Of a stretch of 10,993 nucleotides of DNA, positions 28-10,424 are shown piece by piece (within the stretch, counting starts at the first letter, position 1; each line of letters starts with the position of its first letter). The stretch spans positions 1-10,993 of the forward strand of contig JBJCIZ010000313.1 of the NCBI GenBank assembly GCA_051294375.1, read 5' to 3'. The notes under the pieces were generated by a model. That model was not told where the DNA came from. It worked only from the letters and a program-made list of their open reading frames with translations, and searched no databases. The stretch comes from Paraspadella gotoi. Lineage: Eukaryota; Animalia; Chaetognatha. A program made the position numbers and the translations under genes.

Positions 28-112
28 TAACAGATAGGGAAGGATATTCTCAGATACAATAACATAGTCAAAAAGTATATTTTCTCATCTAAACTTTGCT
101 CTCACCCTAACT

Positions 113-360
113 CGCCCCTGGGGGAGCAGTTTTTTGCTCCCCAAGGGGTTACCCCCAGGGGCAGACTTTTTTTGGCCCCAGGGGGCTAAGCATTAGGGGC
201 GCCCCTAATAGACCCAAAATGTTGGCCCCAGGGGGAACCCCCCTGGGGCGGCCCCCTGAGGCAATCCAGAGGGGGCGCCCCCTCAATGACCATTTTACTG
301 CTCCCCCTGGAATAGCCTGCCCCCTGGGGCCGCCCCTAGAGCCACCCCGGGGGGCGGAGG
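113..360. repeat. GC-rich island of CCCC(N)GGGG palindromes and hairpins, possibly a non-autonomous DNA-element remnant
   Basis: Perfect palindromes ATTAGGGGCGCCCCTAAT (192-209) and GAGGGGGCGCCCCCTC (269-284); hairpins GGGGAGCA/TGCTCCCC (121-142) and GCCCCAGGGGG/CCCCCTGGGGC (225-249); direct repeat TTGGCCCCAGGGGG (172-185, 222-235). Sharp contrast with the AT-rich flanks. Element origin is inference. Confidence 0.6.
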
Positions 361-980: not shown

Positions 981-1340
981 CTCCTTTTTCTTTGTTGTAC
1001 ATTGCAAAAATGTATCTTTATTATTTATTTATCCCTGTTGTTTTGTTTCTCTCTCTCTCTCTCTCACTCTCTGTCTCTCTTTAACAAGTTTCACTTCTTT
1101 TCACAACTCACTCAATCTGCCCTTACCTTCAACCTGTCCTCACATCTGACCACTATTCTGTCTCACCACATTGTTGGAAAAACTTTTACCCCCTCTCTCT
1201 CTCTCTCACACTCTTCTTTTACACAAATTTATTATTAAATTTCATATGCTGATGAAGGCTTGAAGTAAACAAGCTGAAACATGTCCAACTATTAATTAAA
1301 AATCGTTGTTACAAATTCAAAATTTTTTGCTTTTTTTAAA
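981..1340 (+). mobile_element. Penelope-like element (PLE) pLTR-like fragment, non-coding
   Basis: CT-rich segment ending in a minimal type I hammerhead (1244-1292), followed by ATTAAA and a T-rich tail; it interrupts the AATT minisatellite. Boundaries approximate; no RT or GIY-YIG ORF seen. Confidence 0.5.
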
Positions 1341-1790
1341 TTAATTAATTGAAATATTTTTATAATGTTTGCGGTGACTCAAAACAAAAATTTATAGAAA
1401 AATTTGAGGCCTGTTTTTTGTGATAAAACCTGGTATTATCAAAAACAGTAAAAAAGTAAAAATGATAAAAATAATAACAACAACAACTAGTATTTACATT
1501 GGCTGAGAAAAAGGTCAGCCATAACAAGATTGGGTAAAAACAGGTCATTCTTATTGACCACTACTGTACTACGGCTCACAAAGTACAAAGTCTTCGTCGT
1601 TGTTTTTGTCATTGTATTCATCGTCGTTGTCATCTTTGTTCAAATCATTTGAGCTCCCAAATGTTCGATGTTATTATTTTAATTAATATGGAATTAATTA
1701 AATAATTTATTTTTTTCAATTAATTAATCAATTAATTACTGCTAATGATAGTGGGCAAATCCGGCATTGTTTGCTCAAACTTGTTTATTA
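1110..1790 (+). repeat. Segment duplicated at 4627-5301
   Basis: Collinear match from actcaatctgccc to cttgtttatta; differences are mostly 1-2 nt indels. Confidence 0.95.
1244..1292 (+). ncRNA. Minimal type I hammerhead ribozyme (PLE-type, palindromic stem III)
   Basis: CTGATGA 1249-1255; extra A1256; stem II GGCTTG/CAAGCT (1257-1262/1270-1275); GAAA 1276-1279; palindromic ACATGT 1279-1284; GTC cleavage triplet ending at C1285; weak stem I ATATG/CA(AC)TAT. Confidence 0.8.
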
Positions 1791-1815: not shown

Positions 1816-3890
1816 AATGAACGAGCCAACAGAAAGACTGAAAGCGTGAGATGGCAAGGAAGAAAAAGGGAAAGGGAAAGGCTATCGAAAATAAAAAGGA
1901 TGCGACGAATTTGAATTGATCGTAAATTAAAAAAAAGCGAGGAAAATATATTTATGATAAGAAAGAAGAAGAAAGAAGGCCAAGTAGAGAGGAGTTTAAT
2001 GAGAAGATCTATTAAAAAAGAGATGAGGCAAAGGAAGTGTCTAATTTGATGCGTTGAGCGTGGGCAATGATAAGACACAATGAAAAAACGTGGCGAACGG
2101 TTTCGATCGATGCCTCTCTGATTTTAATCGCCTTAAGTAATTGTTCTGAGCGCAAATTAATTGATCATGTACTTTTTGGTAATATGTGCGATATATACTA
2201 CTGGACATTACTTGTTTATCTGACATGAGACCCTTGAACCATCAACAAAAATGCTACATAGATCAAAAATAGTAAAAAGATGAAGCAATATAGCTCGAAA
2301 CCTTACAAAATTTTTAGACCAGTGCTTTTATAAAAGCAAAAAAAATATTAATATTATTAAAACAAAACTTTAGAACTGATAAACAAATAGTTAAGCCTAG
2401 GACCAAGGAGAATATTTTTTACCCCATGCATTTTCCTCAATTTATATGAATCATTATTGTTATTACATAGTTTAATTAATTCTAAAATAACAGATATGAC
2501 AAATTTCATTTTCAATTTTCTTATTGAATGGGAAGTTTTCTCTGCTGTACTTCCCCTTTGTCTAATTATTTAATATTTTTAAGGTATTTTCAAAACCTTT
2601 ATATAATTAGCTGATATTTTTGCACTTTTTATTAATTCTTTCAAAGCAAAAAACAACATTATAAAAAACATTTTAATTAATAAAAAAATACTGATTGAAT
2701 GATTTTGGAAAAAAATATTTAACTCGAGAATAATGGATTATGAGTCAGGATAAAAATTTTGCAATTCTAAAAAAATCAAAGGCCTCTAGACCTTTCTGAT
2801 TTTTTCTAGAAGGCTGATTTTTTTATTTTTTTTGATTTATTTTGATTTTCTATGCCAAAACCATTATTCTCATATAAGTGCATAGGTCGGTCAAAATTTT
2901 TTTTCCAACAATTTGAAGAGAAGTATTTACACTGTTTTTAATTAGGCTTTTTTGGGGAGATAATAAATATTAATAATTATTAGTCGAATGCGGTACATCT
3001 GAAAGTGATATTGTCTCTAAAATGACAAAAATAATTTTCTTTCAAGTTTTGAATTTTAATGTTAATATTTAAATGCGCATAGAAATAGTGAGATTACTCC
3101 TGCTTTTCCGAAATTCTTTTAACAAAGTATTTTACTTGCGTAGATTTAAAATTATTTTTTTTAAACTAACTTTGGAACAGAAAAGAAGGGTAGCAAGGTG
3201 GATGTAGTGATCAAATTAAAGCCTAATCATGGGACATCCTTCTAAAATAGGAGTTTTATTAAATAAATCATAATCTTTAACACAGGCTTTTGTTTAAATC
3301 AGATTGTTAAAAGTAATAACAGTTTTTTGCTTTAAAAATATCAGAATAATGCACTATGACATATTTTTTCTTTTTCTTTTGTAATATTTGAAGGACAAGA
3401 CTGGATATTTACATTTTGGTTTATTTTATTAAATTTTTATTCCTAAAAAGTTGGCTTATATTTCTTCAGTTAAAGTAATAAACAAGCAAGAAATTTATGA
3501 TGTTTAGCTTGATAAAATGTATTGTTTAAATATTAAAAAGAATAATACAAAAATTGTTTCAGCTGATATAAACAGTCTGGACATCTACCTTCTCTGTTCT
3601 GGTAAAAAAAAAAATCGTCATTTTTATCAATCATTCTTTTACTTGCAAACCTAAAAGCTTGACACACTGCCTGGTTTATCCATAATAAAGTTAGTTAATA
3701 CAAATTAGTATTAGCCTCGCGGGTCAAACATATTTTGAACAAAATGCAAACACAGATCCATTTGTGGTAAAATTGTATTTAGATAGTGTTCGCTTACGCT
3801 TTCCAGATCGCGTCCACATCTCTGCTTCAGACATATGGCTATTGGATTCCTGAATTCTATGGTGGACTAAAATCCACCAACTGTTCATCA

Positions 3891-3962
3891 GCAGCCATTG
3901 GTGCCGGAGGCAAGTCATTCGCCTCCCAACCCAAAGGTCCGGGGTTCTAGACCGGTGGTCGC
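3891..3962 (+). promoter_or_regulatory. tRNA-derived (Gly-CCC-like) head / internal Pol III promoter inside the LTR; not a functional tRNA
   Basis: 72 nt; acceptor-like GCAGCCA/TGGTCGC (6/7 pairs incl. one G-T); A-box-like TGGTGCCGGAGG 3899-3910; B-box-like GGTTCTAGACC 3943-3953; loop CTCCCAA with CCC at 3925-3927 in the TCGCCTCCCA context typical of eukaryotic tRNA-Gly; anticodon and T stems are degenerate. Confidence 0.75.
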
Positions 3963-3964
3963 CT

Positions 3965-4040
3965 AGCAGTTAAGAGGGACGGGGCGCTTAACCCACCTGT
4001 AACACGCTGTTACAGCCTGATCCGAAGCTCAGGGACTGCT
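3965..4040 (+). ncRNA. Twister ribozyme-like motif, type-P5 permutation (P2 and T2 degenerate in this copy)
   Basis: P5 AGCAGTT/GACTGCT (3965-3971/4034-4040); GA-CGG 3978-3982; mini-P1 GGCGCT; T^AA 3989-3991; P3 CTGTAACA/TGTTACAG (3997-4004/4008-4015); P4 CCTGA/TCAGG (4016-4020/4029-4033); L4 TCCGAAGC; T1 pseudoknot CCG(4022-4024):CGG(3980-3982). Confidence 0.72.
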
Positions 4041-4087
4041 TACATTGAACGGTTCTGTCTTTAACACAATAATTACTGTCTCTTCAT

Positions 4088-4100
4088 TGGTGAGCCCGAC
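4088..4100 (+). promoter_or_regulatory. Primer-binding site (tRNA-Trp-like)
   Basis: TGGTGAGCCCGAC one base after the LTR-terminal CA; 12/13 match to the start of the classical tRNA-Trp PBS TGGTGACCCCGAC; identical at 6341-6353. Confidence 0.75.
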
Positions 4101-4105
4101 TTCCG

Positions 4106-4463
4106 NNNNNNNNNNNNNNNNNNNNNNNNNNNNNNNNNNNNNNNNNNNNNNNNNNNNNNNNNNNNNNNNNNNNNNNNNNNNNNNNNNNNNNNNNNNNNNN
4201 NNNNNNNNNNNNNNNNNNNNNNNNNNNNNNNNNNNNNNNNNNNNNNNNNNNNNNNNNNNNNNNNNNNNNNNNNNNNNNNNNNNNNNNNNNNNNNNNNNNN
4301 NNNNNNNNNNNNNNNNNNNNNNNNNNNNNNNNNNNNNNNNNNNNNNNNNNNNNNNNNNNNNNNNNNNNNNNNNNNNNNNNNNNNNNNNNNNNNNNNNNNN
4401 NNNNNNNNNNNNNNNNNNNNNNNNNNNNNNNNNNNNNNNNNNNNNNNNNNNNNNNNNNNNNNN
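4106..4463. other. Assembly gap (358 N) covering the TRIM internal region and most of the 3' LTR
   Basis: N run between the PBS and the resumption of LTR sequence (gaagctcagggactgct). Confidence 1.
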
Positions 4464-4601
4464 GAAGCTCAGGGACTGCTTACATTGAACGGTTCTGTCT
4501 TTAGCGCATAACAATAATTACTGTCTCTTCAATTCGAAGTTTATTGTAAAATCACAACATACCTTAAGGCCTGCGATCATTCAAACAAGAATTGCATAAA
4601 G

Positions 4602-4626: not shown

Positions 4627-5301
4627 ACTCAATCTGCCCTTACCCTTCAACCTTCCTCACATCTGACCACTATTCTGTCTCACCACATTGTTGGAAAAAC
4701 TTTACCCCCTCTCTCTCTCTCTCACATCTTCTCTTTACACAAATTTATTATTAAATTTCATATGCTGATGAATGCTTGAAGTAAACAAGCTGAACATGTC
4801 CAACTATTAATTAAAATCGTTGTACAAATTCAAAACATTTTTTGCTTCTTTAAATTAATAATTGAATATTTTATAATGTTTGCGGTGACTCAAACAAAAA
4901 TTTATAGAAAATTTGACGCTGTTTTTTGCTGATAAAACCTGGTATTATCAAAAAACAGTAATACAAAAATAAAAAATGATAAAATATAATAACAACAACA
5001 ACTAATATTTACATTGGCTGAGAAAACAGGTCAGCCATAAACAAGATTTGGTAAACAGGTCATTTATTGACTCACTACCTGTACTACGGCTCACAAAGTA
5101 ACACAAGTCTTCGTCGTTGTTTTTGTCATTGTATATCGTCGTTAGTCATCTTTTTCAAATCATTTGACTCCCAAATGTTCGATGTTATTAGTTTAATTAA
5201 TATGGAATTAATTAAATAATTTATTTTTTTCAATTAATTAATCAATAATTACTGCTAATGATAGTGGCAAATCGCGCATGTTGCTTCAAACTTGTTTATT
5301 A
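4627..5301 (+). repeat. Indel-rich second copy of 1110-1790, probably redundant long-read sequence
   Basis: Starts right after a 25-N gap, while copy 1 ends right at a 25-N gap; differences are dominated by homopolymer and single-base indels. Confidence 0.85.
4760..4807 (+). ncRNA. Second, error-bearing copy of the minimal hammerhead
   Basis: CTGATGA 4765-4771, stem II GCTTG/CAAGC, but GAA instead of GAAA before CATGTC; lies inside the duplicated segment. Confidence 0.5.
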
Positions 5302-6113
5302 ATATATTATTTATATATATTTATTTTATTTGCTTTTTTTCAGTGCAAAGGGGAAAAAAGAAAGAAGATAGAGAAGACGAGAGTGTGGTAGATGTATAAG
5401 CATAATATTATGTCAATATTGCCAATAAAACAGATCAATCCCTTTTGTTTAAACTTGTTTTGTAACATGAAAAACATTATGGATTTAAAAAAAGAGACTT
5501 TAAATTTAAAGAAAAATAATAAAATATAAGAATACAAATTTTTAATTTATATAGAATTAAAAAAAGTTTATTTAAATTATTAATTTAACTTCATTACAGT
5601 TTATTTTTCAGATATAAATATTTTTTTCCTACTCAGATTTATTTGAAATATATTAAAAAGAACAAATATGTAATTTTTTTCCATAGATTCGACCAAAAGA
5701 GGAAAGAGAATAAAAGAAAACAAAAAAATAAAAGAGAGAATAAGAAAAAGTGAATAAAAATTAGGAGCAAACCAATTTTAAATGTGAAAATAAATATAAT
5801 AACAAACAATTTTTAAAAGAAAAATCACAGAAAGAGCAGGGGGTTGCAGAAGATTTTTGATTACATTATAGATACCTCTTTCATTTCTGTACCAATTAAA
5901 AAACAAAGACCCAGGAAGCGAACACGCGCAGGGTTTTTATAGCTTCAGGTTCATCTTTATATCTTCAATTTCTTCTATTGTCTCTACTGCTGTTTCTTCA
6001 TCGGGTTCTTCAAAAATCGGCTCGCTTCCACAGTGTTCGCTTACGCTTTCCAGATCGCGTCCACATCTCTGCTTCAGACAATATGGCTATTGCGATTCTC
6101 CTGTAGCAAATTC

Positions 6114-6783
6114 TATGGTGGACCTCAAACTCTCACAACTGTTCATCAGCAGCATTGGTTGCGAGGCAAGCATTCGCCTCCAACCCAAAGGTCCGGGGTT
6201 CTAGACCGGGGTCGCTAGCAGTTAAGTAAGGGACGGGCGCTTAACCCACCTGTAAACGCTGTTACAGCCTGATCCGAAGCTCAGGGACTGCTTACATTGA
6301 ACGGCTTCTTTCTTAACACAAATAATTACTGTCTCTTCATTGGTGAGCCCGACTTCCCGAACACAACAGCAACAACAATACTTTCAGGCGACATGCCTCA
6401 ACTTGGTGACGAACTTTCCACCACAACACACCAAATCACTGAGAGACGCAAACAGAACTTCTCCCTCGATCGACTACGCGCTCGAGGGATGGTAATGGTT
6501 GGCGACTATAAATGTTTCAAGCCACAAGACCCGTTCATCAGCGCATTGAGCCATGTCTCGCGAGGCAAGTCAGTTCGATCGCCTCCCCAACCACAAGCGT
6601 CCGGAGTGTTAGCCCGGCTGCGTCGTCCATGCTGGCGAGTTAGGGTCCATGAGGCGCTTAACCACGCCTGCATCCACGCATGCTTACACCTAGATCCGAA
6701 CGACTCAGGGAACTGCTTACAGATATGCTGAACGATTCCTGTACTTTTAGCGCGAGACAATACACACTATCATCTGTCTCTCA
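6114..6783 (+). mobile_element. TRIM copy B (complete but noisy): LTR-PBS-~155 nt internal-PPT-LTR
   Basis: ATTC 6110-6113; LTR 6114-6339; PBS 6341-6353; purine-rich GAGGGATGGTAA 6484-6495; garbled 3' LTR ~6496-6783 keeping landmarks (gttcatcagc, gaggcaagtca, cgcctcccc, ggcgcttaacc, gatccgaa, tcagggaactgcttaca, ctgtctctca); ATTC 6784-6787. Confidence 0.75.
6217..6292 (+). ncRNA. Twister-like motif in the 5' LTR of copy B
   Basis: AGCAGTT...GACGG...TAACCCACCTGTAA..GTTACAG CCTGA TCCGAAGC TCAGG GACTGCT; same core as 3965-4040 with small indels. Confidence 0.6.
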
Positions 6784-7348: not shown

Positions 7349-7601
7349 AGAAACTGTATTGATTTTACTATTCAAATCAGGTAGACTTAATTCAAAACCG
7401 TTTTCTCAATATAATGCAAAATTTTAAAAAAGTCCAATAAAATCTTATTAAAAACAAAAATCGTCGCTCAGTGTTGCTTGTGAGTCCCAAATGCTAGAAA
7501 AATATTTTTTTAAATTTTTTATATTTTTATATAATATATAAAAATATTTATAGAAATATAATTATAGTGTTAAAAATGATTTTTTTTATTCAATCCGAGA
7601 A
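7349..7601 (+). repeat. ~255-bp direct repeat, copy 1 (copy 2 at 8117-8375)
   Basis: agaaactgtattgattttactattc...ttattcaatccgagaa present twice, with a few substitutions and one short indel near aaagcgcagg. Confidence 0.95.
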
Positions 7602-8116: not shown

Positions 8117-8375
8117 AGAAACTGTATTGATTTTACTATTCAAATCAGGTAAAGCGCAGGCTTAATTCAAAAGCGTTTTCTCAATATAATGCAAAATTTA
8201 AAAAAAGTCCAATAAAATCTTATTAAAAACAAAAATCGTTGCTCAGTGTTGCTTGTGAGTCCCAAATGCTAGAAAAATAATTTTAAAAAATTTTTATATT
8301 TTATATAATATATAAAAATATTTATAGAAATATAATTATAGTGTTAAAAATGATTTTTTTTATTCAATCCGAGAA
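8117..8375 (+). repeat. ~255-bp direct repeat, copy 2
   Basis: Near-identical to 7349-7601. Confidence 0.95.
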
Positions 8376-8580
8376 GGGTAGTATTATATATTAAAAAGTA
8401 AATATGTAATAAAAATTATATTTTATAATAAAATTAGCTAATTTTTCTAAACTGCGATAATTTTTTTTTATTATAATATAATTTAAAAATATAAAATTAA
8501 AATACAATTTTAATTTTAATAAAATATAATAATCATATTAAATATAATAAATTAAAATAATTTTTAATTTTTTTTATTTT

Positions 8581-8582
<2 letters not shown>

Positions 8583-8641
<59 letters not shown>

Positions 8642-8693
8642 TAATAATAATAATAATAAATAAAATATAAATATTTTATATTAATTATAATTA

Positions 8694-8761
<68 letters not shown>

Positions 8762-8772
8762 TTATTATTATT
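8583..8772. repeat. (AAT)n and (ATT)n microsatellites in inverted arrangement, inside an almost pure-AT tract (~8380-8925)
   Basis: (TAA)n 8583-8660, central ATAAAATAT-AA-ATATTTTAT 8660-8679, (TTA)n ~8691-8772. Confidence 0.95.
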
Positions 8773-9216
8773 ATATAATCTGATAATAATATATATTTTA
8801 TTATAAAATAATTTTATTTTATTTATTTAAAATTATACAAAATTACTTTTAAATTATTTTAATATTCAAATACATTTTTTTAAAAATATTTTTATAATTA
8901 ATATATAATAAAAAATTATTTTTAACTGAGCGGGATTTTTCTGAAAAATTCAGGCCCAGGACCTCACTGTGCGCCGGTTCTAAAGCTTAGTACTACGCAT
9001 AATACTAATCTTTGTTGGATCAAAACGAGTTCGATTTTAACCGAAAGTTGATCGGTTTGAAGAGCGATTTTTGCGATTGCTTTTTGGCGATTACTTTTGA
9101 ACAGATTGTCGGATTATGATGAAATTATGCATGTAGATAATGTTAGCAATTGTCTATCAAACGCTTCCAAATTTGATATAAAACAATGAGTTGTTTAGAA
9201 ACGTTGCTCATCCCAA

Positions 9217-9511
9217 ATTATATTGAAGTTTAGAAATCCCTTTATTTCATATATAAAAATTGCATCAAAAATATTTTTCCGAGTTGACTAGTCTATTTGA
9301 ATCTGATGGTTTGATGCCAAAATGATGGTTATTTGTTAAGAGGAAAAAATACGAGCTCTTGAGATGCAACAGGATCTAAATCAAGTGTTTTTATATCTAT
9401 TTTTTACCTGAATTTTTCCCAGGGGCGTTTACATTGTTTGGTAGTCAGATTTTAACGAAAATCTGCATTGAAAAAGTCTTCCTCGATTTCTAAGAACGAC
9501 GTAGACTCCTA
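9217..9511 (+). repeat. Left arm of a ~295-bp inverted repeat (partner 9920-10218)
   Basis: Collinear with the reverse complement of 9920-10218, e.g. ATTTGAATCTGATGGTTTGATG, TTTACCTGAATTTTTCCCAGG, GCGTTTACATTGTTTGGTAGTCAGATTTTA, CGACGTAGACTCCTA; roughly 85% identity by eye. Confidence 0.95.
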
Positions 9512-9688
9512 CATAAATATTTGGTTACCATCAAAAGCAGGCTCGATCCTTATGCTTTTAAGATTTTTTTTATTTATTAGTGAATAATGACAAGATTCAG
9601 AGGTGGGACCGACGGACTGGCAAAGTGGAATATAGAGTTGGAATAAACAGATCTGACTCATGAACTTCTAAAACTTCCTTTTCTACAG

Positions 9689-9774
9689 CATCAACATCAA
9701 AGTTTGATTGTATATTATGTAAACAAGGAAGCTATTCAAGTGAAGAAAAATCTACCAAATGTGAACTCTGCAAG
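9689..9774 (+). CDS. Internal exon encoding a Cys-rich GCC2/GCC3 (ephrin-receptor-like) repeat: STSKFDCILCKQGSYSSEEKSTKCELCK
   Basis: Pyrimidine-rich acceptor cttccttttctacAG (AG 9687-9688), donor AAG|GTAAAT (9775); 2 nt + 28 open codons giving the CxxCxxGxY...CxxC pattern. Host gene not identifiable. Confidence 0.75.
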
Positions 9775-9919: not shown

Positions 9920-10218
9920 TAGGAGTCTACGTCGGTTCTCTAGAACATCAGAGAAGACTTTTTCAATGAAAATTTTTGCTAAAATCTGACTACCAAACAA
10001 TGTAAACGCTCCTGGGAAAAATTCAGGTAAACAATAGATGTAAAAACACTCAATTCCAATCCTGTTGCATCTGAAGGGCTCGCATTTTTTTCTTCTTGAC
10101 AAATAACCATCATTTTGACATCAAACCATCAGATTCAAATGGACTGGTCCGCTCCGGAAAATATTTTCGACGCAATTTTTTATATATAAAATAAAGGATT
10201 TCTCAACTTCAATACAAT
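9920..10218 (-). repeat. Right arm of the ~295-bp inverted repeat
   Basis: Reverse complement of 9217-9511. Confidence 0.95.
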
Positions 10219-10224
10219 GTCAAC

Positions 10225-10294
10225 GCATTTAACATATGTTGTGATTTTACAATAAACTTCAAATTCAGGAATCCGATAGCCATATATCTGGAAG
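10225..10294 (-). repeat. Empty-site paralogue of the sequence into which the TRIM inserted
   Basis: Reverse complement reads CAGATATATGGCTATCGGATTCCTGA-ATTT-GAAGTTTATTGTAAAATCACAACATA, joining the left flank (3828-3857) and right flank (4536-4561) of copy A with one copy of the 4-bp target. Confidence 0.9.
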
Positions 10295-10424
10295 GGCTCT
10301 CAAAATTTTTCTTTATATTTTATTTATAGTATTTTAATATGATCTGATCATGTAAATGAATTAGTCCATGTTTCGTGCGTGTGAAAATTTATTTAAAGTA
10401 AAAGTAAAAGACGAGTTAAGAATC

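What the first reader, a model, noticed from the sequence alone, without database searches (positions are those of the whole stretch)
3858..4531. Candidate 'twister LTR retrozyme': a miniature LTR retrotransposon with a tRNA-derived Pol III head and a twister ribozyme in each LTR
Seen: ATTC-[229-bp LTR]-PBS-short non-coding internal region-PPT-[LTR]-ATTC (internal part and PPT readable only in copy B). Inside the LTR a tRNA(Gly)-like 72-mer (3891-3962) is followed 2 nt later by a twister-like fold (3965-4040). Known: plant LTR retrozymes carry hammerheads in their LTRs and give circRNAs; Cassandra TRIMs carry 5S rRNA in their LTRs; as I recall, Helenus-type TRIMs carry tRNA-like LTR sequence with 4-bp TSDs in animals; twisters are known in non-LTR retrotransposons (e.g. 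Schistosoma). I know of no description of TRIM + tRNA promoter + twister combined, but could not check this. Inference: Pol III transcription through both LTRs and cleavage at the equivalent U^A in each would release a unit-length RNA of about 400 nt with 5'-OH and 2',3'-cyclic phosphate ends, which RtcB could circularise and a Ty3/gypsy partner could reverse-transcribe.
Basis: partly seen in the sequence, partly recalled or inferred. Interest (0 to 1): 0.93.

Follow-up and report, generated by a model that had tools for sequence, protein, structure and literature searches.

The report
tRNA-headed LTR retrozyme with twister ribozyme
A small, high-copy jumping element carries in its terminal repeats a tRNA-like, likely promoter followed by a twister-ribozyme-shaped sequence, so it is predicted to cut its own RNA into a roughly 380-base unit that would likely circularise, a design so far described in plants with a different ribozyme.

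Summary
Confirmed as a miniature LTR element (TRIM). Contigs from four public runs break off into unrelated flanks exactly at 3858 and 4086 (64-140 and 29-60 contigs in three runs; 26 and 23 in the fourth). Both LTRs, a tRNA-Trp-type PBS, a 4-bp ATTC duplication and an empty target site are present. The LTR holds a degenerate tRNA with A/B-box-like motifs, then a twister-shaped motif in P5-permuted order: UAA cleavage loop, catalytic G-A, P3, P4, P5, and a pseudoknot changed on both sides (CGG:CCG). That change and the 3-nt P2 strand occur in natural phage twisters that pass Rfam. This copy has A at the critical G13 position; 93-99.7% of family depth has G. Against: no Rfam hit, P1 nearly absent, one P2 mismatch, no cleavage or RNA data, no cross-species covariation. 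Copy B looks like an error-rich duplicate of the same insertion, so the internal region and PPT rest mainly on it. Best reading: a Helenus-like Pol III TRIM working like an LTR retrozyme with a twister. Ten literature searches found no such combination. Cleavage likely (~0.65); circular RNA plausible (~0.5).

The parts
3854..3857 (+). left target-site duplication ATTC
   Evidence: sequence; family LTR start at 3858; empty site
3858..4086 (+). 5' LTR, 229 bp, TA...CA
   Evidence: loose ends with unrelated flanks at both ends in 4 of 4 runs laid
3891..3962 (+). degenerate tRNA-like head: 7-bp acceptor stem, T-arm hairpin, broken anticodon arm
   Evidence: acceptor pairs 0.94-0.98 at 6 of 7 positions; majority letters at 3893 and 3951 complete the acceptor stem and T hairpin; no ARAGORN or Rfam hit
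3899..3910 (+). A-box-like motif (likely Pol III promoter)
   Evidence: read by eye against the recalled consensus and the Helenus description in PMC10886601
3943..3953 (+). B-box-like motif GGTTC...
   Evidence: sequence; GGTTC is the conserved Helenus B-box core (PMC10886601)
3965..4040 (+). twister-like motif in P5-permuted order: P5 3965-70/4035-40; P2 3992-94/3975-77 (2 of 3 pairs); catalytic G3978, A3979; T1 3980-82/4022-24; T2 3995-96/4027-28; C3997-G4015; P3 3998-4014; P4 4016-20/4029-33; P1 at most one wobble pair
   Evidence: pair table; descriptor hit in 14 of 100,000 LTR shuffles; family majority G at 3995; natural controls
3989..3990 (+). predicted cleavage site U^A in the UAA loop
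   Evidence: position by homology to the domain table of PMC8501958; not tested
4087..4100 (+). primer-binding site, tRNA-Trp 3'-end type
   Evidence: 13 of 14 letters equal to the Gypsy-32_NVi and Helenus-2_SyJa PBS in Fig. S2 of PMC10886601; read-through from the LTR in 4 of 4 runs
4464..4531 (+). readable 3' part of the 3' LTR (includes the second half of L4, the P4 3' strand and the P5 3' strand)
   Evidence: 62 of 63 aligned letters identical to the 5' LTR, plus a 5-nt insertion
4532..4535 (+). right target-site duplication ATTC
   Evidence: sequence
6114..6783 (+). copy B: error-rich duplicate of the same insertion; 5' LTR 6114-6339, internal region about 6340-6493, 3' LTR about 6494-6783
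   Evidence: same flanks, indel-dominated differences; internal start matches loose ends behind 4105 in 3 runs shown
6484..6492 (+). PPT-like run (8 of 9 purines) just before the 3' LTR of copy B
   Evidence: sequence only, in the noisy copy; weak
10200..10300 (-). empty homologue of the target site (single target copy at 10261-10264)
   Evidence: aligns to the left flank (30 of 32 letters) and right flank (34 of 37) of copy A

Best explanation
This is a high-copy, non-coding miniature LTR retrotransposon whose LTRs carry a tRNA-like head followed by a twister-shaped motif, and it likely works as an LTR retrozyme: it would be transcribed from a predicted Pol III promoter, cut itself at the same U^A in both LTRs, and be copied from a likely circular unit RNA by a probably Gypsy-type partner. 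Shown: LTR ends, PBS, TSD, empty site, many insertion flanks, and an intact twister core in the family majority. Inferred steps: (1) Pol III starts near 3891 and reads through, as there is no run of four T in the LTR or readable internal region. [quoted passage not shown] (3) That RNA has no terminal repeat for strand transfer, so a host tRNA ligase closes it into a circle. (4) tRNA-Trp primes reverse transcription on the circle, which regenerates two LTRs, and an integrase leaves a 4-bp TSD. This particular copy's 5' ribozyme is predicted dead (A3995).
For: Family ends, PBS read-through and empty sites; empty site in the window. All four positions that tolerate no substitution in the Osa-1-4 scan (G13, G30, A46, G48; PMC5113685) are present in the family majority: 3995 is G in 97, 93, 99.7 and 99.6% of depth in four runs; G4027, A3979, G3981 are in the sequence. 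T1 is changed on both sides relative to the usual GGG:CCC and still pairs 3 of 3; 3 of 25 phage loci found with this variant are full P5 twisters and all 3 pass Rfam's gathering score. A 3-nt P2 strand is the norm in P5-type natural twisters, 30 of 34, against 0 of 39 P1-type. P3, P4, P5 fold with probabilities 0.66-1.0. Descriptor hits: only the two clean LTR copies in the window, 14 of 100,000 shuffles. Common non-core variants in the motif keep P5 as a G-U pair or fall in the P3 loop and its closing pair. P1 is dispensable and P2 imperfections are tolerated (PMC5113685; PMC11662667). No T4 in copy A's LTR or copy B's internal region. Plant retrozymes supply the precedent: ribozyme in each LTR, 4-bp TSD, PBS, PPT, circular RNA, Gypsy partner (PMC4918200; PMC7761336).
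Against: No Rfam twister hit at E up to 10, even on the motif alone, and no hit with a model built from 17 phage P1-type twisters (narrow, as its core was invariant by selection). P1 is one wobble pair at most, while Rfam's P5 consensus has an 8-bp P1 and no P3. P2 has a C-A mismatch that no listed variant repairs. The A-U pair closing P4 was found in 0 viral contigs with the usual T1. The descriptor was written after seeing the motif and loosened to admit this copy. Several fungal twister candidates were inactive in vitro (PMC11662667). With the LTR's last 41 nt included, P5 pairing drops from 0.97 to 0.15 in this copy. No cleavage, transcript or circle data, and no covariation across species. 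Internal region and PPT rest largely on one noisy copy.
Confidence: 0.52

Rival explanations
1. The twister is active but serves as a 3'-end maker in place of a Pol III terminator. The 5' copy is often left uncut, so a linear RNA from the tRNA head (3891) to U3989 of the 3' LTR has a 99-nt terminal repeat and is reverse-transcribed in the ordinary LTR way, with no circle.
For: The motif sits 2 nt after the tRNA, where many Helenus LTRs show a T-run (seen by eye in supplement parts 1 and 6 of PMC10886601); no T4 here. A weak P1 and a P2 mismatch could make cleavage slow; an alternative pairing with the LTR end is predicted at about 0.7.
Against: Both LTRs carry the same motif, so selective 3' cleavage needs an unexplained switch; the alternative helix is no better than 307 of 5,000 shuffled tails; in N. 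benthamiana the LTR ribozyme cut the primary transcript completely (PMC9695139).
Confidence: 0.2
2. It is an ordinary Helenus-type Pol III TRIM that captured a twister-bearing sequence; the motif is now a non-cleaving relic or structural element.
For: No Rfam hit, P1 nearly gone, P2 mismatch fixed in the family, A-U closing pair not seen in viral twisters; Helenus families move without any reported ribozyme (PMC10886601).
Against: Every substitution-intolerant position and both pseudoknots are intact in the family majority, with a two-sided T1 change; an active ribozyme is a cost to a linear TRIM RNA, so a relic would be expected to lose core positions first.
Confidence: 0.22
3. The twister likeness is chance, or the unit is a SINE-like repeat and not an LTR element.
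For: Post hoc descriptor; standard models silent; only one independent insertion is readable end to end.
Against: 14 of 100,000 shuffles; the family majority repairs the one core defect, which the descriptor did not use; sharp TA...CA ends, PBS, TSD and empty site.
Confidence: 0.06

Closest known systems
Plant LTR retrozymes (PMC4918200, PMC7761336, PMC9695139)
   Same: Non-coding, two LTRs each with a self-cleaving ribozyme motif, PBS, PPT, 4-bp TSD, presumed Gypsy partner, unit RNA defined by two cleavage sites.
   Different: Twister-type motif instead of a type III hammerhead; tRNA-derived head in the LTR; tRNA-Trp-type instead of tRNA-Met PBS; 229-bp LTR and about 380-nt unit against 300-400 bp and 600-1000 nt; circular RNA not shown here.
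Helenus / TRIMp3 (PMC10886601)
   Same: TRIM under 1 kb, tRNA-like sequence with GGTTC B-box core in each LTR, PBS and PPT; 4-bp TSD and 3'-end tRNA PBS as in animal Helenus; PBS nearly identical to Helenus-2_SyJa.
   Different: No ribozyme is reported in Helenus: 'twister' 0 times in text and supplement, twister L4 core words absent or in non-twister context, and this family's own words absent (line breaks in the FASTA can hide words; 3 of 11 supplement parts read). Here a twister-like motif follows the tRNA and no T4 run does.
Type-P5 twister ribozyme (Rfam RF02684)
   Same: Strand order, UAA, GA plus T1 strand, 3-nt P2 strand, T2, L4; the CGG:CCG T1 variant occurs in members passing the gathering score.
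   Different: P1 hairpin reduced from about 8 bp to at most 1; P3 present; P5 closed by a 6-bp helix; A-U closing P4; does not score with the model.
Twister variants of Schistosoma Perere-3 / RTE elements (PMC8501958)
   Same: Twister in a retrotransposon, weak or absent P1, similar P3 stem.
   Different: Those are P1-type, single, at the 5' end of an autonomous non-LTR element.
Cassandra and Ajax TRIMs
   Same: Small-RNA-derived Pol III promoter inside the LTR.
   Different: 5S rRNA-derived; no ribozyme reported in PMC10886601.

Membership tests
TRIM | two LTRs, under 1 kb, non-coding | tested here: met
   674 bp with gap in copy A, 670 bp in copy B; no protein function tested for the short frames in copy B
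TRIM | PBS directly after the 5' LTR | tested here: met
   4087-4100, 13 of 14 to a tRNA-Trp PBS; read-through in 4 runs; host tRNA not available
TRIM | PPT before the 3' LTR | tested here: inconclusive
   8 of 9 purines, only in noisy copy B
TRIM | target-site duplication, dispersed copies | tested here: met
   4-bp TSD with empty site at one locus; over 100 distinct left flanks in two runs; TSDs of other copies not read
Helenus (TRIMp3) | tRNA-like sequence with A/B boxes in the LTR | tested here: met
   acceptor stem, T hairpin, GGTTC; below ARAGORN and Rfam thresholds
Helenus (TRIMp3) | Pol III transcription (unproven for Helenus too) | not testable with these tools
   no T4 in LTR or internal region is compatible only
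Helenus (TRIMp3) | identity with a published family | tested here: not met
   family words absent from the supplement FASTA; Repbase and Dfam not searchable
Twister ribozyme | UAA cleavage loop, catalytic G-A, U24, A28, A29 | tested here: met
   3989-91, 3978-79, 4021, 4025-26; no listed variant at these places
Twister ribozyme | pseudoknot T1 | tested here: met
   3 of 3 pairs, two-sided variant seen in natural members
Twister ribozyme | pseudoknot T2 | tested here: met
   met in 93-99.7% of family depth; broken in this copy's 5' LTR
Twister ribozyme | helices P2 and P4 | tested here: inconclusive
   P4 5 of 5; P2 2 of 3 with a C-A mismatch
Twister ribozyme | helix P1 (conserved but dispensable) | tested here: not met
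   one wobble pair at most; dispensable per PMC5113685, PMC11662667
Twister ribozyme | score with Rfam twister models | tested here: not met
   no hit at E up to 10; 8 of 8 control loci hit
Twister ribozyme | self-cleavage at U^A | not testable with these tools
   needs an in vitro assay
LTR retrozyme | hammerhead ribozyme in each LTR | tested here: not met
   no hammerhead hit; twister-like motif instead, so 'works like', not a member
LTR retrozyme | unit-length circular RNA | not testable with these tools
   only contigs were available; no holder on record as RNA

The most novel reading that the evidence does not exclude
An independently evolved retrozyme: a Pol III-driven TRIM that uses an active, minimal-P1, P5-permuted twister in each LTR to make a circular RNA of about 380 nt, present in very many copies in a probably non-plant eukaryote. 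It would show that LTR retrozymes arose more than once with different ribozyme classes, offer a genomic source for twister-bearing viroid-like circles, and reveal a twister form that Rfam models miss.
Probability: 0.45. Interest if true: 0.9.

Novelty: new variant of a known kind. Interest (0 to 1): 0.76.

Why it matters
LTR retrozymes are described from plants with hammerheads, and twisters in retrotransposons from non-LTR elements. A twister in the LTR of a tRNA-headed TRIM joins three described ideas (TRIMp3, retrozyme, twister) in one element, gives a concrete biological job for a twister, and is directly testable with a 76-nt RNA and one RT-PCR. Twister-bearing circular RNAs are common in metatranscriptomes (10.1101/2022.07.19.500677, passages), and a genomic, reverse-transcribed element of this kind would be a candidate source or ancestor. 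The motif escapes Rfam, so similar elements may be overlooked elsewhere.

Tried and rejected
No genome is held for the window, so paired LTRs, solo LTRs, tandem arrays, other TSDs and an autonomous partner could not be counted. Rfam, whole window and local: no twister or tRNA hit. ARAGORN: none. No RNA holder listed among 12 runs; X5 is only guessed to be RNA and contigs cannot show a circle. Relatives: 0 hits in metagenome and viral contigs with the family-shaped pattern; the 18-letter P4/L4 word gave 29 metagenome loci, none extending beyond 18-31 letters of the LTR, judged chance. A model from 17 phage P1-type twisters missed the motif; it is narrow by construction. An alignment of 28 of the 34 P5 twisters was only inspected. 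Alternative register with the GAGGG at 3974-3978 as the T1 strand: rejected by eye, as it cannot pair L4 and leaves no P2. 5-bp TSD: rejected by the family end at 4086. Copy B as an independent insertion: rejected. An anti-ribozyme helix with the LTR end: not significant (307 of 5,000). Host identity: a broken exon-like stretch hits Pfam Ephrin_rec_like but had no homologue among longer proteins; not diagnostic. Summed contig depth (peak 1.16 million in X1 against 13-49 for listed single contigs) suggests very high copy number but is not a count. One paper search returned only p53 papers. Three look-ups of earlier findings returned nothing.
Full report
Question and data. No genome is held, so the family was studied through contigs of public runs and the ribozyme through natural controls and papers.

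The element is real. The stretch 3858-4086 (229 bp, TA...CA) is followed by a PBS, a gap (4107-4463), the end of a second LTR (4464-4531; 62 of 63 aligned letters identical plus a 5-nt insertion) and is flanked by ATTC on both sides. An empty version of the target lies at 10200-10300 on the minus strand and aligns to both flanks (30 of 32 and 34 of 37 letters). Four runs of one organism label, from three studies, were laid on 3700-4106: 5,873, 12,276, 2,071 and 818 contigs were laid. Loose ends pile up before 3858 (117, 140, 64, 26 contigs) and behind 4086 (52, 60, 29, 23) with agreement near 0.4, which marks many unrelated insertion flanks and fixes both LTR ends. This also settles the TSD as 4 bp. 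Contigs run on from the LTR through the PBS into letters matching the internal region of copy B (shown for 3 of 4 runs), and empty-site contigs occur in all four. The table was cut, so these counts are lower bounds. The flank 3700-3783 had no cover in these runs.

Copy B is most likely not independent. It has the same flanks, shares copy A's private letters in the 5' LTR, and differs by 19 gaps and 2 mismatches, an error pattern of raw long reads (inference). It still gives the layout: internal region about 154 nt, an 8-of-9 purine run, then the 3' LTR. The two predicted cleavage sites are 417 nt apart there; with insertion errors removed the unit is about 229 + 150 = 380 nt (estimate).

tRNA head. 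ARAGORN and Rfam see nothing. By folding, 3891-3962 closes a 7-bp acceptor stem, 6 pairs at 0.94-0.98; the majority letters at 3893 (92-99.7%) and 3951 (over 99%) complete the acceptor stem and a 5-bp T hairpin, and the common variants at 3959 and 3962 keep pairing. A GGTTC B-box core and an A-box-like motif are present (consensus partly recalled; PMC10886601). The anticodon arm is broken, so this is a promoter-type remnant, not a tRNA gene. No run of four T occurs in copy A's LTR or copy B's internal region. The PBS matches the tRNA-Trp PBS of Gypsy-32_NVi and Helenus-2_SyJa at 13 of 14 letters.

Twister. Mapped on the domain table of PMC8501958 and Osa-1-4 numbering (PMC5113685; some position numbers recalled), 3965-4040 has all core parts in P5-permuted order: P5 6 of 6 pairs, P3 7 of 7, P4 5 of 5, C15-G19, T1 3 of 3, UAA, catalytic G-A. 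T2 is broken in this copy by A3995, at a position where no substitution was tolerated in the Osa-1-4 scan. The family has G there in 97, 93, 99.7 and 99.6% of depth, and the noisy 3' LTR of copy B shows G too; A3995 fits CpG decay, as do most minor variants. Two unusual traits proved natural. Among phage twisters fetched with the usual core (133 loci of about 140), those in P5 order have a 3-nt P2 strand in 30 of 34 cases and P1-type ones in 0 of 39 (a looser parse gave 27 of 31, with 33 of 114 distinct matches unparsed). The CGG:CCG T1 occurs in 3 of 25 loci of a loose scan as full twisters, all above Rfam's Twister-P5 gathering score. A relaxed descriptor, written after seeing the motif, hits only the two clean LTR copies in the window and 14 of 100,000 LTR shuffles.

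Against the twister. Rfam gives no hit on the motif while hitting 8 of 8 controls; its P5 consensus has an 8-bp P1 and no P3, which explains but does not remove the miss. My own model of 17 P1-type twisters missed it as well. P1 is at most one wobble pair, P2 has a C-A mismatch with no listed repairing variant, and the A-U pair closing P4 was not found in viral twisters with the usual T1 (0 hits). Published scans say P1 is dispensable, P2 and P4 imperfections are mostly tolerated and pseudoknot breaks are not, which matches where this family is loose and where it is strict; the same study found several fungal candidates inactive. Covariation across species was not obtained, and no relatives were found in metagenome or viral contigs.

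Mechanism. Shown: an LTR element that integrates with a 4-bp TSD and has spread widely. Inferred: Pol III starts at the tRNA head and reads through; cleavage at the same U^A in both LTRs yields a unit RNA without terminal redundancy; such an RNA cannot do the ordinary first strand transfer, so circularisation by a tRNA ligase, as for plant retrozymes, is the simplest route; tRNA-Trp primes reverse transcription by a Gypsy-type partner. I put cleavage by intact copies at about 0.65-0.7 and this route at 0.52. Rivals: the twister as a terminator substitute with a linear RNA and a 99-nt repeat (0.2); a relic motif in an ordinary Helenus-like TRIM (0.22); chance or non-LTR (0.06).

Known relatives and novelty. 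It works like a plant LTR retrozyme but fails membership (no hammerhead). It meets the structural definition of Helenus, which is a grade of tRNA-bearing TRIMs, but matches no published family by word search, and no ribozyme is reported for Helenus. Searches for the combination listed hammerhead retrozymes, non-LTR twisters and Helenus separately and no paper title or abstract start joining them; one search was uninformative. The library lacks most subscription papers, Repbase and Dfam were not searchable, and the supplement of PMC11662667 could not be read. Papers seen: PMC10886601 main text parts 1-4 of 6, supplement parts 1, 6, 10 of 11 plus word searches; PMC5113685 whole text; PMC8501958 parts 1 and 3 of 9; PMC11662667 passages and section 35; PMC6154101, PMC7761336, PMC4918200, PMC9695139 and 10.1101/2022.07.19.500677 passages; all others as search listings only.

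Host. Not identified. The window is 31% G+C and the family shows CpG-type decay. A 4-bp TSD with a 3'-end PBS fits animal Helenus; fungal Helenus have 5-bp TSDs (PMC10886601), so a fungal host would add a further difference.

Verdict. Observation confirmed; interpretation partly supported; new variant of a known kind; interest 0.76.

Noticed in passing
window 1110-1790 and 4627-5290: A second duplicated segment whose copies differ mostly by indels, like copies A and B; suggests assembly duplication with raw long reads across the window.
   Followed up: no
window 3787-3857, 6032-6113, 10200-10300: The target of the insertion is itself a multi-copy repeat (summed depth of thousands to 200,000) with both filled and empty versions.
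   Followed up: partly
window 3974-3980 and 4078-4084: The LTR's terminal pyrimidine run can pair with the twister's catalytic strand (probability about 0.7) and could block re-cleavage of a circle; not significant against shuffles (307 of 5,000).
   Followed up: yes
window 4060-4075: Family depth falls several-fold here and loose ends show another sequence: LTR subfamilies differ between the twister and the conserved last 12 bases; copy A's two LTRs differ here by a 5-nt insertion.
   Followed up: partly
window 9562-9774: Exon-like stretch with an in-frame stop and a Pfam Ephrin_rec_like hit (E 1.8e-05), followed by a GT; probably a broken receptor-like gene. No homologue found among longer proteins.
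   Followed up: partly
window 9255-9481 and 9953-10180: Long inverted repeats (88-89% complementary), possibly a MITE-like element.
   Followed up: no
window 110-360: GC-rich cluster of CCCC/GGGG palindromic units in an AT-rich background. Together with the overall sequence style it reminds me of arbuscular mycorrhizal fungal genomes (recalled impression, untested).
   Followed up: no
L146:199-259, L153:199-260, L154:198-250: Phage type-P5 twisters with the CGG:CCG T1 variant; several sit just before a Shine-Dalgarno-like sequence, as do many of the P5 twisters in L003-L127.
   Followed up: partly
window 7383-7601 and 8158-8375; 8570-8775: A 220-bp direct repeat 775 bp apart, and a (TAA)n/(TTA)n inverted microsatellite.
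   Followed up: no
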